64,000 nt of DNA, taken from Candidatus Collierbacteria bacterium GW2011_GWC2_44_18 (lineage in GTDB: Bacteria > Patescibacteriota > Microgenomatia > UBA1400 > MFAQ01). The stretch is from NCBI GenBank assembly GCA_001000865.1, contig LCIE01000002.1:32992-96991 (forward strand). The letters run 5' to 3'. The notes under the pieces were generated by a model, which worked only from the letters and a program-made list of their open reading frames with translations, was not told the DNA's origin and did no database searches. Both the position numbers and the translations under genes were made by a program. Below are positions 16,674 to 27,736 of the stretch, one piece after another (the first letter of the stretch is position 1; the number at the start of each line of letters is the position of its first letter).

Positions 16674-16764
16674 TCTTTCCCCGAGGAGTCTCCACCCTCG
16701 ACCCCTCCCCATCCTATTAGTGCTACAATATCCCATAAATCTCGCACTTTAACGGAGGCTATTG

Positions 16765-16968
16765 ATGCCCAATTTCTGTCCACTCGTAAATGGGATATGT
16801 AAAGCCACTTGCGTATTTTTCAACGCCAGACTCAGAACCTGCCTTATTCGTGATGCGGCTCTTGCCATACTTTCTCTGCCCAATAAGGTAGAAGCCATCC
16901 AGGAAGGCGTCGAAGATCTGCCCGACAAAATCGTCGATCAATTTGTCGAAATCAACCGAGAAGATTAG
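16765..16968 (+). CDS. small Cys-containing hypothetical protein (67 aa)
   Basis: GGAGG RBS then ATG; followed by an intrinsic terminator. Confidence 0.35.
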   Translation: MPNFCPLVNGICKATCVFFNARLRTCLIRDAALAILSLPNKVEAIQEGVEDLPDKIVDQFVEINRED

Positions 16969-16980
16969 GAGCCTAAATTG

Positions 16981-17004
16981 CAGGCCGCCCGAAGGGCGGC
17001 CTTT
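16981..17004. terminator. bidirectional intrinsic terminator
   Basis: ggccgcccgaagggcggcc hairpin flanked by A and T runs, between convergent genes. Confidence 0.6.
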
Positions 17005-17948
17005 TAAGTCTCCCTCTCCAAAAAATATTGAGTTAGGCAGAAGCGATATCCGGGACCTCGTTTGTATGATGCCACAATTTCTTTTTGTTCATCGGTCAGT
17101 TTTTCAAAATCTTTTTCGGTCAGATGGGCCAGAATCAAAACATCACTTCGTCTCAGTTCTATTCCTGTCTCTTTCTGTATTTGATCTAGTATCTCTTTCT
17201 GTACAGGCGCATATTTTTTATAAATATAATCTGATGTAAACTTATGAAAAACTTTTTCGGCGATAATCAGTGACAGAATATTCTTAAACCACTTTGTTCC
17301 ATATAGCGTCTGGACCGGCTCCCGACTAAAGGTAAAACCAACTCTGTAGTAAAACAATCCAAATGGTTTGCTCATAGAAGTCAGCACCGCGATGATATTG
17401 GGGTGTGTCATGTCAAACCTGTGTTTCTTGGTTAACCCTAGATATGCCATATCCACAACTACTTTGTTCCCCAAATCAGCAATTTGATTGATTAAAGAGT
17501 CCGGTAAAATATTGCCATCTCTGCCCGATGGGTTTGATATAAACCAATACCCGGGCATCAACGCCTTAATCACCTCTATATCCTCCTTAACTTCCTGCAC
17601 GGTTAGGCCCAGGCCAGCCGCGCATTCCCGGTAACCTTCGTACTCACCCTCTAAAGTGTAAATCGGAGAGTCGGGATGGTCCTTTTTAATCCTTGATAGT
17701 AGGTGATAGATACCTTCGCTCGAACCACTCGTTGGATAACGATAGCCAAATCCTTCTAATCCCTTGACGTCTTTTTTATAAAACTTAATCATCTTTTCAG
17801 TGATCGGTTTTTCGTAGTCATCCAATCCGGGTGAAATAGATTTCAAAAACTCTCCATGCGGAAAATCAGCTGTAATCTTCGAAATTAATTTTCGTATCTC
17901 CGGAAAATAGTAGGAGTACACCGCCCTAATTGTCTTTAATTTCTCCAT
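17004..17948 (-). CDS. PLP-dependent aminotransferase (class I/II fold; HisC/CobD-like)
   Basis: NPSGRDG, DMAYLGL and SMSKPFGL (PLP-lysine SxSK) motifs. 314 aa. Confidence 0.65.
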   Translation of the reverse strand: MEKLKTIRAVYSYYFPEIRKLISKITADFPHGEFLKSISPGLDDYEKPITEKMIKFYKKDVKGLEGFGYRYPTSGSSEGIYHLLSRIKKDHPDSPIYTLEGEYEGYRECAAGLGLTVQEVKEDIEVIKALMPGYWFISNPSGRDGNILPDSLINQIADLGNKVVVDMAYLGLTKKHRFDMTHPNIIAVLTSMSKPFGLFYYRVGFTFSREPVQTLYGTKWFKNILSLIIAEKVFHKFTSDYIYKKYAPVQKEILDQIQKETGIELRRSDVLILAHLTEKDFEKLTDEQKEIVASYKRGPGYRFCLTQYFLERET

Positions 17949-17972
17949 ATTTATTGATAATTTTTAACTCGT

Positions 17973-18040
17973 TGTCATCCCGCACCTTCCCGAGGAGTCT
18001 CCTTGTAGGTATTCCTGCGAGGAGACTCCTCATTGGTCTC
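17973..18040. repeat. Family-A variant palindromic element (GTCATCCCG...GGAGTCTCC/GGAGACTCC)
   Basis: Intergenic inverted repeat between the aminotransferase and the radical SAM gene. Confidence 0.55.
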
Positions 18041-18048
18041 CATCTCCG

Positions 18049-18924
18049 TTAAAGAATAATCGCCCCTTTGTACTGCCAATCGAATCTAATGTGCCCATCC
18101 GGAAAGAATATCATTTGCCGAATATCATCTGTACCCGGTTTAATCGTCAAAGCGTCCGTCAAGCACACATTCTGCCCGTCTATGTCAAAGATTCTTGAAT
18201 TGTGCCCATAAGAAAGTAGTAGTCTCCCGTGCTTCTCCGCCCATCGATTAATATCCGAGATCTTCTTCGCAGTTAGCATAAGGTTCAGTGTATCTGCCTT
18301 ATATTTTTCACTCTCCGATTCTTCGGGTGCCGCCACTGGTCGCAGCGAAACTTGCTCTACCCCCCATTTGTTGGCTGTTTCAACCATCTTTTGCGCCTCT
18401 TTTGGTGTGTCGATGTGATCTTTAATCAAGACCACCGAAAATCTCACTGAGTATCCAATCTTGTGTAGTTTATCGATTAATTTTCCCAAATCAGGGTAAG
18501 TCTTTTTTCCAGGCACATAATTTGCTCTATTCTTCTCTGGGTCATAATGCACCACCGATATCGAGATTATCGATAGGCCCAGCTCATACCACTCTTTCAA
18601 ATATTTGTCATATTTTTCTGACTGCTCCGAAAACAATATTCCATTTGTCTGCAGTTCCAGAATCGGAAAGTCATATTTCTGGAGGTGTTGGAGATAATCG
18701 GTGATTTGATCAGGGAATAATGTTGGCTCACCTTTACCCGTTAACAATACGCTGGTGATGTTATTTACTTGCGCCATCCGACAGGCTTTGTGAAAGTTTA
18801 TCCAGTTCACCTTCGTCGGTCTCATCCCAATCTCCTTTACCCCCGTCATTTTCGAGACACAAAACGGACACTTCGCATTACATATTGCATTGCCTGAAAC
18901 TACTGTAAACGTTTGTATCTTCAT
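18049..18924 (-). CDS. radical SAM enzyme (no SPASM domain), function unknown
   Basis: CNAKCPFC = CX3CX2C near the N-terminus. 291 aa. Confidence 0.75.
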   Translation of the reverse strand: MKIQTFTVVSGNAICNAKCPFCVSKMTGVKEIGMRPTKVNWINFHKACRMAQVNNITSVLLTGKGEPTLFPDQITDYLQHLQKYDFPILELQTNGILFSEQSEKYDKYLKEWYELGLSIISISVVHYDPEKNRANYVPGKKTYPDLGKLIDKLHKIGYSVRFSVVLIKDHIDTPKEAQKMVETANKWGVEQVSLRPVAAPEESESEKYKADTLNLMLTAKKISDINRWAEKHGRLLLSYGHNSRIFDIDGQNVCLTDALTIKPGTDDIRQMIFFPDGHIRFDWQYKGAIIL

Positions 18925-18934
18925 CTTAGTGTAA

Positions 18935-18963
18935 AGTATACACTATACCTCTCACCTTGTCAA
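18935..18963 (-). promoter_or_regulatory. consensus sigma70 promoter (minus strand) TTGACA-N17-TATACT driving the radical SAM operon
   Basis: Reverse complement reads ttgacaaggtgagaggtatagtgtatact. The ATG lies about 10 nt downstream. Confidence 0.55.
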
Positions 18964-18970
18964 TCCTCGT

Positions 18971-18998
18971 TCGTCATTCCGGGCTTGACCCGGAATCC
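18971..18998. repeat. Family-A variant (GTCATTCCGGGCTTGACCCGGAATCC)
   Basis: Near-identical copy at 27708-27736. Confidence 0.75.
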
Positions 18999-19075: not shown

Positions 19076-19471
19076 ATGAGGATATTTAGCTTTCTTTTAC
19101 CCCGTAGGCCACAGCCTCCGCATCCTGATACTCCCATTGAAACTTGGATCGTTGAGATATTAGAAGCTCCGGAAGGACCCGTCTTAAACAAAACTTTGAT
19201 CATTACCGAGAGCTGGTCTCGGGCCAACAGTCGACCTCCTCTCCATCAGGATCATCAGTTTGGGCCAAGCAAACCGATCGTTTTTGTCATTAATGAATTG
19301 CCTGGTTCTAAACGGTATCGTGTCTATACCAAATCAGACTTTGATATTCAGTTCGGCGAGATCACGACCAGAACACCTGAAGAAAGAATCGAGGTCAAAG
19401 ACAGTTACGGTAACATGCTTGCCGATGCCGTAGAAGAACTCAGACAAATACATGCCAGATTGCAGAAATAG
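19076..19471 (+). CDS. hypothetical protein (131 aa)
   Basis: AAGGAG RBS upstream; no recognisable domain. Confidence 0.5.
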   Translation: MRIFSFLLPRRPQPPHPDTPIETWIVEILEAPEGPVLNKTLIITESWSRANSRPPLHQDHQFGPSKPIVFVINELPGSKRYRVYTKSDFDIQFGEITTRTPEERIEVKDSYGNMLADAVEELRQIHARLQK

Positions 19472-19479
19472 AGGTTCTC

Positions 19480-20046
19480 ATGTTCGTCTTTCAAGGACAT
19501 CAAATCGTCTCATTGCTTGGCACTTTAGTCATGGTGGTGTGGTTCATTCTACCCCTGATCTTCAAAAAGCTGAAGATCATGCCTAAGATCGGGCGTGGAA
19601 TGAAGTTCCGGGATTATTTCTGGGTGTATGCGTATGCCCTGTTGATCCCGAACTCCACATACGCCTTCTTTGAACTTCGGCACCTAATCTTCATCGATCA
19701 CGTTGCCGATGTTCTGACTCCCTCTTCCTTCATGGTTTTTGGAAGCATTTCTTTGATCGGCCTCCTGACAACGATCTGGGGAATTCGGCTGGTGGTGGAC
19801 TATTATGCTAAATCCAAGATGGAGCGAGTCGTTTACACACTTGCTCTTTCTCTAATCTGTGGCTTCGGGGCCGTGATCGGCCTCCTGGACTTCGCCAGTT
19901 TCTCTGCAGTTCTCTTCCCTCCGGTTTTGATTCTCATCGCCATTGTATTGCTTGGGCATCCGTTCCTCATCCGGGTCGCCCTGGTCACGGCTACGTTTCT
20001 ATTTTTTCTGAATCTCCTTCTCGACTGCTTTCAAAAACCCACCTAA
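19480..20046 (+). CDS. polytopic membrane protein (188 aa, 5-6 TM helices)
   Basis: Hydrophobic helices throughout; terminator follows. Confidence 0.55.
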   Translation: MFVFQGHQIVSLLGTLVMVVWFILPLIFKKLKIMPKIGRGMKFRDYFWVYAYALLIPNSTYAFFELRHLIFIDHVADVLTPSSFMVFGSISLIGLLTTIWGIRLVVDYYAKSKMERVVYTLALSLICGFGAVIGLLDFASFSAVLFPPVLILIAIVLLGHPFLIRVALVTATFLFFLNLLLDCFQKPT

Positions 20047-27707: not shown

Positions 27708-27736
27708 CTGTCATTCCGAGCTTGACCCGGAATCCA
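27708..27736. repeat. Family-A variant (GTCATTCCGAGCTTGACCCGGAATCC)
   Basis: Intergenic between rpsC and rplP. Confidence 0.75.

What the first reader, a model, noticed from the sequence alone, without database searches (positions are those of the whole stretch)
17004..18963. Radical SAM enzyme and PLP aminotransferase operon under a textbook promoter, opposite strand to the rpoBC-str and fusA-tuf blocks
A 291-aa radical SAM protein (CX3CX2C, no SPASM) is followed by a class I/II aminotransferase (SxSK lysine). They are driven by TTGACA-N17-TATACT with a ~10-nt leader and flanked by repeat elements. A radical SAM plus aminotransferase pairing suggests synthesis of a modified amino-sugar, nucleoside or cofactor, but neither protein maps cleanly to a named pathway from sequence alone.
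Basis: partly seen in the sequence, partly recalled or inferred. Interest (0 to 1): 0.5.

Follow-up and report, generated by a model that had tools for sequence, protein, structure and literature searches.

The report
Radical SAM–PLP pair in NAD regulon
The two genes are a real, tightly coupled enzyme pair that no database names, and its promoter carries the operator of the NAD-synthesis regulator NrtR, so it is probably an undescribed step in NAD metabolism shared by tiny bacteria, tiny archaea and large phages.

Summary
On the minus strand, between rpsG and fusA, lie a 291-aa radical SAM gene (18049-18924; CX3CX2C, no auxiliary cluster) and a 314-aa fold-type-I PLP enzyme (17004-17948; SxSK lysine), behind TTGACA-N17-TATACT.

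New evidence:
- **The pair is one unit.** The genes are adjacent in 39 of 80 species-level loci, in either order. They usually abut or overlap, and they are fused in one 666-aa protein.
- **The radical SAM family sits in NAD gene clusters.** These clusters (pncA, pncB, nadD, nadE, NAD kinase, nadABC, nadR-pnuC, nrtR) occur in CPR bacteria and DPANN archaea. Predicted large phages carry it without the PLP partner.
- **The window's promoter carries an operator.** An exact TAGTGTA-N5-TACACTA palindrome overlaps the -10 box. It is invariant in Collierbacteria relatives and sits upstream of NAD genes elsewhere (26 exact copies against 0.01 expected). It fits the published NrtR operator form (GT-N7-AC core).

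No curated family, solved structure or paper covers either protein. The closest folds are viperin, MoaA, Tes and BlsE. The chemistry is not established. My best guess is radical C-H activation of a pyridine-nucleotide-type substrate followed by a PLP step. A new anaerobic route to an NAD precursor is the main rival.

The parts
18958..18963 (-). -35 hexamer TTGACA of the operon promoter
   Evidence: 11 of 12 match with 17-nt spacer. Invariant in 7 diverged Collierbacteria-like loci.
18935..18940 (-). -10 hexamer TATACT. It ends 10 nt before the ATG, so the mRNA is near-leaderless.
18927..18945 (.). NrtR-type operator: exact palindrome TAGTGTA-N5-TACACTA (core GT-N7-AC). It overlaps the -10 box and the expected start site and ends 3 nt (2 intervening bases) before the ATG.
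   Evidence: It is the only match in the 64-kb window, with 0 mismatches; 0.09 matches are expected at up to 2 mismatches. It is invariant in relatives. The same palindrome lies upstream of pncB, pncA, nadA, NAD kinase, nadE, nrtR, rSAM and PLP genes in other loci. Counts are 26 exact and 51 with at most 1 mismatch in 1.24 Mb, against 0.01 and 0.32 for permuted half-sites. An operator scan made without regard to the radical SAM gene gave the same association. The form matches the description in PMC2330246.
18049..18924 (-). Radical SAM enzyme, 291 aa, with a single [4Fe-4S]/SAM site (C15, C19, C22), a TGKGEP motif and conserved C48 and C254. It belongs to an uncharacterised family linked to NAD clusters.
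17992..18031 (-). Stable hairpin in the 100-nt spacer between the two genes. It is a repeat-derived insertion peculiar to this genome; in relatives the genes abut or overlap.
   Evidence: dG -32 kcal/mol, z -3.2; gaps mostly -31 to +5 nt.
17004..17948 (-). Fold-type-I PLP enzyme, 314 aa, distantly HisC/CobD-like. K194 is the Schiff-base lysine; N139, D166, Y169, S191, S193, R202, R297 and R302 are invariant.
16983..17001 (.). GC-rich hairpin (GGCCGCC-loop-GGCGGCC) starting 2 nt after the PLP gene's stop codon. It may be a bidirectional terminator, since the T-run is better on the + strand.
   Evidence: Read directly. The terminator scan did not list it.
16680..16693 (+). First copy of the 14-nt repeat CCCGAGGAGTCTCC (second copy at 17989-18002).
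   Evidence: 2 copies against 0.07 expected.

Best explanation
This is a two-gene operon of the NAD (NrtR) regulon. It encodes an undescribed radical SAM enzyme and its PLP-dependent partner.

**Shown by the data**
- The two proteins form one functional unit.
- The radical SAM family is a regular component of NAD biosynthesis and salvage gene clusters in CPR bacteria, DPANN archaea, some larger-genome bacteria and predicted large phages.
- In this window the operon's promoter is overlaid by the same 19-bp palindrome that precedes NAD genes elsewhere.

**Inferred**
- NrtR, encoded elsewhere in the genome, sits on the operator across the -10 box and start site. ADP-ribose, the product of NAD breakdown, releases it. 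A near-leaderless bicistronic mRNA is then made.
- The radical SAM enzyme uses its single [4Fe-4S] cluster and SAM to make a 5'-deoxyadenosyl radical. That radical abstracts a hydrogen from a pyridine-nucleotide-pathway compound, most likely on the sugar of a nicotinate or nicotinamide (di)nucleotide or of an ADP-ribose-derived sugar phosphate. This is what its nearest structural relatives do with nucleotides (viperin, MoaA, BlsE).
- Where the PLP enzyme is present, it processes the resulting carbonyl or enol product, or prepares the substrate, by transamination or decarboxylation. The same two-step logic is seen in BlsE/BlsH and BtrN/BtrS.
- The net role is a service to the NAD(P) pool (recycling, salvage or conversion) that is needed whichever route supplies NaMN.

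**Confidence by layer**
- Pair is a functional unit: about 0.9.
- Belongs to NAD metabolism and the NrtR regulon: about 0.85.
- Acts on a nucleotide-type NAD intermediate: about 0.4.
- Keto-then-amine sequence: about 0.25.
For: **Unit**
- The PLP gene is directly adjacent to the radical SAM gene in 39 of 80 species-level loci, in both orders.
- Gaps are mostly -31 to +5 nt, with a 4-nt overlap in the Collierbacteria relative L171 and a 10-nt overlap in WOR-1.
- A natural 666-aa fusion, P0333/P0397, has the radical SAM domain N-terminal and the PLP domain C-terminal.
- Radical SAM proteins with a PLP neighbour form coherent clades.

**NAD link**
- 49 of 76 loci have at least one NAD gene within 8 kb.
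- Neighbour counts: pncA about 33, nrtR/Nudix about 34 and 19, pncB 31, NAD kinase 33, nadA 17, nadD 17, nadE 16, nadR 12, ADP-ribosylglycohydrolase 11, nadB/nadC 9, pnuC 8.
- Examples: NrtR-PnuC-NadR-rSAM-PLP-NADK-PncB-PncA, PncB-PncA-NadE-Nudix-NadD-rSAM-PncC-NrtR, nadA-nadC-rSAM-nadB and nadC-nadA-nadB-PLP-rSAM.
- Predicted phage contigs carry PncA-rSAM-PncB-NadD-NadE, and the link holds even for a homologue at 28% identity.

**Operator**.

**PLP residues** are all conserved.
Against: - No substrate has been identified. MoaA's triphosphate-binding arginines (R17, R71) are not conserved in the alignment, so a nucleoside-triphosphate substrate is not supported.
- Half of the cellular loci and all phage loci lack the PLP gene, so the radical SAM step does not need it.
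- No nrtR gene or other NAD gene lies in the 64-kb window. NrtR control here rests on the operator alone.
- NrtR regulons normally hold supply genes. That fits a precursor-making role (rival 1) at least as well as nucleotide modification.
- The neighbour census used a crude ORF caller and BLAST clustering.
- The phage assignment rests on IMG/VR predictions plus accessory genes. No structural genes were checked.
Confidence: 0.5

Rival explanations
1. The module is a new oxygen-independent route to the pyridine ring or to an NAD precursor. The PLP enzyme activates an amino acid (for example aspartate or a decarboxylated derivative). The radical SAM enzyme forges or aromatises the ring, yielding nicotinate or quinolinate-like material that enters through PncB. 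NrtR induces the operon when NAD is short.
For: NrtR regulons are supply regulons (PMC2330246). The pair stands alone under the operator in Collierbacteria, Woesebacteria and others, as a self-contained precursor module would. It is typically placed next to pncB and pncA. Phages that rebuild NAD keep the radical SAM gene inside the Preiss-Handler operon. The hosts are mostly anaerobic with small genomes, and several clusters carry nadA without nadB or nadC nearby.
Against: The radical SAM gene also sits inside complete nadA-nadC-nadB operons of tiny archaeal genomes, where a second de novo route would be redundant. It also occurs in clusters that only salvage nicotinamide riboside. Phages and half of the cellular loci lack the PLP partner. 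The nearest folds act on nucleotides or lipids, not on amino-acid ring synthesis.
Confidence: 0.2
2. The two proteins form a split aminomutase-type enzyme. The substrate amine is held as a PLP aldimine on the fold-type-I protein while the radical SAM protein abstracts a neighbouring hydrogen, as lysine 2,3-aminomutase does within one polypeptide. The product is an amino acid or amine that feeds NAD synthesis.
Against: Half of the cellular loci and all phage loci keep the radical SAM gene without the PLP gene and are still in NAD clusters, so the radical step works without a PLP-bound substrate. Aminomutases bind PLP inside the radical SAM protein, which this one does not. No obvious amino-acid rearrangement is needed for NAD synthesis.
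Confidence: 0.08
3. The radical SAM enzyme is viperin-like and makes a modified nucleotide that acts as an antimetabolite or as a protected NAD analogue in conflicts between cells and phages, for example a form that resists or inhibits NAD-degrading defence enzymes. The NAD genes nearby only supply the substrate.
Against: Family scores are far below viperin thresholds (32 bits against 180). The context is biosynthetic, not a defence island, and the same family is kept by both minimal-genome cells and phages. NrtR control fits supply better than conflict.
Confidence: 0.08
4. The radical SAM protein is a maturase that modifies or activates one of the NAD-pathway proteins (for example PncA, PncB, NadE or NAD kinase) rather than a small molecule.
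Against: No single NAD-pathway protein is always present beside it. The pair also stands alone in Collierbacteria and several other phyla. A PLP partner and a fusion with it are hard to explain for a protein maturase. These NAD enzymes work without such modification in model organisms (own knowledge).
Confidence: 0.04
5. The two genes have unrelated standard functions (for example a MoaA-type cofactor enzyme and an ordinary amino-acid aminotransferase), and their co-location and the NAD context are coincidental.
For: Automatic annotations call the radical SAM protein MoaA and the PLP protein a HisC-like aminotransferase. In the window itself no NAD gene is nearby.
Against: Equivalog scores are about seven-fold below the cut-offs. 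Adjacency in 39 of 80 species, overlap, fusion, NAD neighbours in 49 of 76 loci and an operator enriched more than 1000-fold all argue against chance.
Confidence: 0.03

Closest known systems
BlsE/BlsH (blasticidin S) and BtrN/BtrS (2-deoxystreptamine): radical SAM enzyme followed by a PLP aminotransferase
   Different: Those enzymes sit in antibiotic gene clusters of actinomycetes and Bacillus, and BtrN needs an auxiliary cluster. Here there is no auxiliary cluster. The context is the NAD regulon of minimal genomes and phages, the PLP partner is optional, and the substrate is unknown.
Viperin and prokaryotic viperins (pVip)
   Different: Sequence scores are far below family thresholds. The context is NAD synthesis rather than defence. 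The family is carried by phages.
MoaA (GTP 3',8-cyclase)
   Different: There is no C-terminal second cluster. The GTP-binding arginines are not conserved. The score is 41 bits against a cut-off of 284. There are no molybdopterin genes nearby.
HisC / CobD subfamily of fold-type-I PLP enzymes
   Same: Best profile matches (HisC 9e-11, CobD 1e-6). Compact size. All PLP-binding residues are present.
NrtR regulon of NAD metabolism (Rodionov et al. 2008, PMC2330246)
   Same: A palindromic operator with a GT-N7-AC core lies upstream of NAD genes. nrtR is encoded in the clusters. The target genes include pncAB, nadABC, nadD/E, nadR and pnuC.
   Different: No radical SAM or PLP gene is described in that regulon (0 occurrences of 'radical' or 'aminotransferase'). 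Here the same operator is used in DPANN archaea and CPR bacteria.
Phage NAD reconstitution (NARP1-3) and 'NAD-jumbo phages'
   Same: Predicted large phages carry complete Preiss-Handler clusters (PMC11662467; this work).
   Different: None of the papers read mentions a radical SAM gene in these clusters.

Membership tests
Radical SAM superfamily (PF04055) | CX3CX2C cluster motif | tested here: met
   C15, C19 and C22 are invariant in 57 sequences.
Radical SAM superfamily (PF04055) | Pfam score above the gathering threshold and a partial TIM-barrel fold | tested here: met
SPASM/twitch radical SAM enzymes (including BtrN-type dehydrogenases) | C-terminal Cys-rich domain binding one or two auxiliary Fe-S clusters | tested here: not met
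   Only C48 and C254 are conserved outside the SAM cluster.
MoaA | Equivalog score, C-terminal three-Cys cluster and GTP-binding arginines | tested here: not met
   41 bits against 284. No C-terminal Cys triad. The R17 and R71 positions are hydrophobic.
Viperin / pVip | Family HMM score at or above the cut-off | tested here: not met
   NF038283 gives 32 bits against 180. PADLOC pVip gives 33 and 27 bits over partial length.
Viperin / pVip | Dehydration of a nucleoside triphosphate to the ddh form | not testable with these tools
   This needs an enzyme assay.
Fold-type-I PLP enzymes, class I/II aminotransferase family (PF00155) | Gathering score; Schiff-base Lys; Asp to the pyridine N; Asn/Tyr to O3'; Ser/Arg to the phosphate | tested here: met
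HisC (histidinol-phosphate aminotransferase) / CobD (threonine-phosphate decarboxylase) | Equivalog score; histidine or cobamide gene context | tested here: not met
   38.5 against 276.6 and 38.3 against 290.6 bits. No his or cob neighbours in about 90 loci.
NrtR regulon | Palindromic operator with a GT-N7-AC core in the promoter | tested here: met
   An exact TAGTGTAAAGTATACACTA at 18927-18945 overlaps the -10 box.
NrtR regulon | The same operator precedes known NAD genes, and nrtR is encoded in the clusters | tested here: met
   nrtR (Nudix plus NrtR winged-helix domain) is confirmed by Pfam.
NrtR regulon | An nrtR gene in this genome; NrtR binding relieved by ADP-ribose | not testable with these tools
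   There is no nrtR in the 64-kb window. The rest of the genome is not available, and binding needs EMSA.
Lysine-2,3-aminomutase-type PLP/radical SAM enzymes | PLP bound within the radical SAM protein; aminomutase motifs | tested here: not met

The most novel reading that the evidence does not exclude
The radical SAM enzyme, with its PLP partner in some lineages, catalyses a previously unknown reaction of NAD metabolism. It could be an oxygen-independent way of making or recovering the pyridine moiety, or the conversion of NAD(P) or a precursor into a form that CPR bacteria, DPANN archaea and NAD-rebuilding phages all need. Either way, a radical step would be added to one of the best-mapped cofactor pathways. 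I recall from memory, unverified, a 1960s proposal of an anaerobic nicotinate route in Clostridium butylicum whose genes were never found. A literature search for it found nothing usable.
Probability: 0.55. Interest if true: 0.85.

Novelty: new variant of a known kind. Interest (0 to 1): 0.72.

Why it matters
NAD synthesis and salvage are regarded as fully mapped, and no radical SAM enzyme is part of any described NAD pathway or NrtR regulon in the literature I could search. This family is large: 428 clusters at 50% identity with E below 1e-30.

- **It is kept by organisms that discard most metabolism.** It lies in the NAD gene clusters of CPR bacteria and DPANN archaea, and in phage operons that rebuild NAD. 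That argues for a needed, unrecognised reaction.
- **The question is directly testable.** There are two small soluble proteins, a short list of candidate substrates and a defined operator.
- **It touches three open areas.** These are how ultra-small symbionts keep their cofactor pools, phage counter-defence against NAD depletion, and the exchange of whole regulons, operator included, between bacteria and archaea.

Tried and rejected
**Searches that found nothing**
- Curated families: NCBIfam, PADLOC and PHROGs gave only sub-threshold generic hits.
- PDB by sequence: nothing for the radical SAM protein and only weak HisC hits for the PLP protein.
- Cultured phage genomes: no homologue of the window protein, and only 26%-identity partial hits for a viral homologue.
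- Literature: ten searches and four papers read found no radical SAM enzyme linked to NrtR, pncA/pncB, NAD salvage or phage NAD reconstitution.
- Other NAD genes in the window: none by tblastn.

**Ideas rejected**
- Replacement of NadB or NadC: the gene co-occurs with nadA, nadB and nadC in one operon.
- Quinolinate decarboxylase: most clusters have no nadA.
- A conserved alternative partner in loci without the PLP gene: none found except a nucleoside-deoxyribosyltransferase-like/Nudix-like protein in five CPR loci, which is not homologous to the PLP enzyme.
- Different NAD gene content in loci with and without the PLP gene: no clear contrast.
- MoaA-type nucleotide-binding residues: not conserved.
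- The hairpin and repeats as functional parts: they are specific to this genome.

**Not possible**
- The AFDB fold library was unavailable.
- The model coordinates could not be inspected, so no pocket analysis was done.
Full report
**1. What is in the window**

Between rpsG (ends 16673) and fusA (starts 20189), both on the + strand, lies a 3.5-kb insert. Its minus strand carries two ORFs:
- 18049-18924, 291 aa
- 17004-17948, 314 aa

The first protein has C15-x3-C19-x2-C22 and passes Pfam Radical_SAM (45 bits against 29.5). The second passes Aminotran_1_2 (34 bits against 19.7) and has S191-M-S193-K194.

The promoter TTGACA-17-TATACT lies at 18963-18935 (11 of 12). Only 10 nt separate the -10 hexamer from the ATG, so the transcript would be nearly leaderless rather than carry a 10-nt leader.

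The two genes are 100 nt apart, and the spacer folds into a strong hairpin (dG -32 kcal/mol, z -3.2). The hairpin is built from a 14-nt repeat that also occurs just after rpsG. In relatives the genes abut or overlap, so this spacer is a local insertion.

The host is a Candidatus Collierbacteria bacterium, since there is a 100%-identical protein, P0002. The position between rpsG and fusA is conserved in that lineage.

**2. Neither protein belongs to a named family**
- For the radical SAM protein, the best NCBIfam hits are MoaA (41 bits against 284), tungsten-cofactor maturase, Tes and viperin (32 against 180). All are far below their cut-offs. PADLOC gives weak pVip hits and PHROGs gives generic ones.
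- For the PLP protein, the best hits are HisC and CobD at 38 bits against cut-offs of about 280.
- The PDB holds no sequence relative of the radical SAM protein. With a family profile, MoaA appears at E 1e-6. For the PLP protein, HisC appears at 9e-11 and CobD at 1e-6.
- Public records call the proteins hypothetical, 'radical SAM core domain-containing' or 'aminotransferase class I/II large domain-containing'.

Both families are nevertheless strongly conserved, at about 50% identity between CPR bacteria and DPANN archaea. The radical SAM family has 428 clusters at 50% identity with E below 1e-30.

**3. The two proteins are one unit**
- In 80 species-level loci from GTDB genomes, the PLP gene is directly next to the radical SAM gene in 39. 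The order is usually rSAM then PLP, and sometimes the reverse.
- Gaps are mostly -31 to +5 nt.
- A 666-aa protein (P0333, with a second member P0397) joins the radical SAM domain (residues 13-293) to a full PLP domain. It is one ORF on its contig.
- On a rough neighbour-joining tree, the radical SAM proteins with a PLP neighbour form several coherent clades. These are interleaved with clades that lack it.

**4. The family lives in NAD gene clusters**

The first two contexts I looked at already showed this:
- An archaeon: NAPRTase, nicotinamidase, NadE, Nudix, NadD, rSAM (4-nt overlap with nadD), PncC, NrtR.
- A Patescibacteria genome: NrtR, PnuC, NadR, rSAM, PLP, NAD kinase, PncB, PncA.

I then ran a census of the 80 loci. 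I called ORFs crudely, clustered them by BLAST and checked cluster representatives against Pfam and NCBIfam. The most frequent neighbours were:

| Neighbour | Loci |
|---|---|
| PLP enzyme | 39 |
| NrtR | about 34 |
| Nudix | about 19 |
| Nicotinamidase (PncA) | about 33 |
| NAD kinase | 33 |
| PncB | 31 |
| NadA | 17 |
| NadD | 17 |
| NadE | 16 |
| NadR | 12 |
| ADP-ribosylglycohydrolase | 11 |
| NadB/NadC | 9 |
| PnuC | 8 |

Of 76 loci, 49 have at least one NAD gene within 8 kb. The gene accompanies every kind of route:
- Preiss-Handler salvage
- Nicotinamide riboside salvage
- De novo synthesis (nadA-nadC-rSAM-nadB in L043 and L039; nadC-nadA-nadB-PLP-rSAM in L041)

Besides CPR and DPANN, the taxa include Obscuribacter, Anaerolineae, Planctomycetota and Acidobacteriota.

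**5. The window's own promoter ties the pair to NAD**

I aligned the promoter region with six diverged Collierbacteria-like loci. Against unconserved flanks, two things are invariant: the TTGACA hexamer and a palindrome, TAGTGTA-N5-TACACTA, which spans the -10 box and ends just before the ATG.
- **Where the palindrome occurs.** Allowing up to 2 mismatches, it occurs 96 times in the 2.6 Mb of loci I had fetched. Nearly all copies lie just upstream of pncB, pncA, nadA, NAD kinase, nadE, nrtR or the rSAM/PLP genes. This holds in bacteria and archaea alike, and for two phage clusters.
- **Chance expectation.** In the 1.24 Mb of species-level loci there are 26 exact copies and 51 with at most one mismatch. 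Permuted half-site controls give 0.01 and 0.32.
- **In the window.** The 64-kb window has exactly one copy, with no mismatch, at 18927-18945.
- **Independent scan.** I scanned metagenome contigs for the exact palindrome without regard to the radical SAM gene. Among the labelled hits, the sites sit in front of nrtR, nadA, nadB/C, pncA, pncB, pnuC and nadD, and twice in front of the radical SAM gene. The many unlabelled hits are probably chance matches in a very large database.
- **Match to NrtR.** Rodionov et al. describe NrtR operators as 21-bp palindromes with a conserved GT-N7-AC core (PMC2330246). This palindrome has that core, and NrtR is the only regulator encoded in the clusters.

So the rSAM-PLP operon of the window is a predicted NrtR target, although no other NAD gene lies within 64 kb.

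**6. Phages**

IMG/VR holds 116 relatives. In at least 14 of the 79 loci kept, the radical SAM gene lies within or beside PncA, PncB, NadD and NadE. One example is PncA-rSAM-PncB-NadD-NadE in L098-L101. The link holds even for a 28%-identity homologue, L150.

The surrounding genes look like those of jumbo phages: YopX, RtcB, RNA ligase, CCA-adding enzyme and a sigma factor. I did not check structural genes. None of these loci has the PLP gene.

Preiss-Handler clusters in jumbo phages and the NARP1-3 pathways are published. The papers I read do not mention a radical SAM gene.

**7. Structure**

**8. How it most likely works**

*Shown:* the unit, the NAD context and the operator.

*Inferred:*
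- NrtR represses the operon by sitting across the -10 box and start site.
- ADP-ribose from NAD breakdown relieves repression. This is the property of NrtR reported in PMC2330246.
- The radical SAM enzyme generates a 5'-deoxyadenosyl radical and attacks a C-H bond of a compound of the NAD pathway.

The gene accompanies de novo, Preiss-Handler and riboside routes alike, and sits most constantly beside NAD kinase, nadD and nadE. I therefore favour a substrate at or after NaMN, or a breakdown product such as an ADP-ribose-derived sugar phosphate. The PLP enzyme would then convert the resulting carbonyl, or prepare the substrate, in the lineages that have it. This is the logic of BlsE/BlsH and BtrN/BtrS.

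I give this specific chemistry no more than 0.25-0.4.

The main rival is a new anaerobic source of the pyridine precursor (0.2). It fits the supply character of NrtR regulons and the stand-alone operon in Collierbacteria. It fits poorly with the gene's presence inside complete nadACB operons of minimal genomes.

The remaining rivals are less likely:
- a split aminomutase
- a maturase for an NAD-pathway enzyme
- a viperin-like antimetabolite
- coincidence

**9. Comparison and novelty**

The parts are of known kinds: the radical SAM superfamily, fold-type-I PLP enzymes, NrtR operators and NAD clusters. Membership of MoaA, viperin, SPASM/twitch, HisC and CobD was tested and not met.

A radical SAM enzyme as a regular member of NAD clusters and the NrtR regulon appears to be undescribed. 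So do the following:
- its PLP partner
- the use of one operator across CPR bacteria and DPANN archaea
- the presence of the gene in phage NAD operons

I rate it a new variant of a known kind, with a fair chance that the reaction itself is new.

Noticed in passing
window 18977-18995 and 27714-27732: A palindrome TTCCGGGCTTGACCCGGAA lies just upstream of the rSAM promoter and overlaps a predicted + strand promoter. A one-mismatch copy sits in an intergenic gap of the ribosomal-protein operon. There are 4 matches at up to 2 mismatches against 0.23 expected. It may be a small REP-like element or another regulator's site.
   Followed up: partly
window 19076-19471 and 19480-20046 (+): Two further ORFs fill the rpsG-fusA insert: a 131-aa protein and a 188-aa hydrophobic protein. 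Neither has a Pfam, PADLOC or PHROGs hit. Collierbacteria relatives carry an MttB-like (trimethylamine methyltransferase family) gene at this position instead.
   Followed up: partly
L023, L032, L034, L036, L077, L086 (archaea) versus L012-L020, L037, L076, L088 (bacteria): DPANN archaea and CPR bacteria use the identical TAGTGTA-N5-TACACTA operator together with nrtR and about 50%-identical NAD-cluster proteins. This suggests that whole regulated NAD clusters moved between the two domains.
   Followed up: partly
L040, L068, L072, L031, L046, L047, L054, L058, L071: nadA (quinolinate synthase) occurs in these clusters with no nadB or nadC within reach, but with pncB. It is unclear how quinolinate would be made or used there.
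   Followed up: no
L030 8448-10000: In an Anaerolineales genome, two operator copies precede a 485-aa HemN-like radical SAM gene that lies directly upstream of rSAM-PLP. A related gene neighbours a viral homologue, L157.
   Followed up: no
L021, L037, L040, L081, L088: In CPR loci without the PLP gene, a 390-aa protein often sits next to the radical SAM gene. It has an N-terminal nucleoside 2-deoxyribosyltransferase-like domain and a weak Nudix-like C-terminal part.
   Followed up: partly
L062, L042 and other loci: The NAD kinase genes in these clusters score far below the NCBIfam equivalog cut-offs (for example 63 bits against 326). In Obscuribacter the kinase gene overlaps the radical SAM gene by 4 nt. 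The kinase may therefore not be an ordinary NAD kinase.
   Followed up: no
L038, L059, L060, L083: A conserved trio lies inside several DPANN NAD clusters: a Ser/Thr protein kinase, a 328-aa protein with no Pfam hit, and a protein resembling the pyruvate kinase barrel.
   Followed up: no
window 16762-16968 (+) and 16749-16941 (-): Overlapping short ORFs of 59-68 aa lie between rpsG and the PLP gene's terminator hairpin. They have no family hit and are probably non-coding spacer.
   Followed up: no
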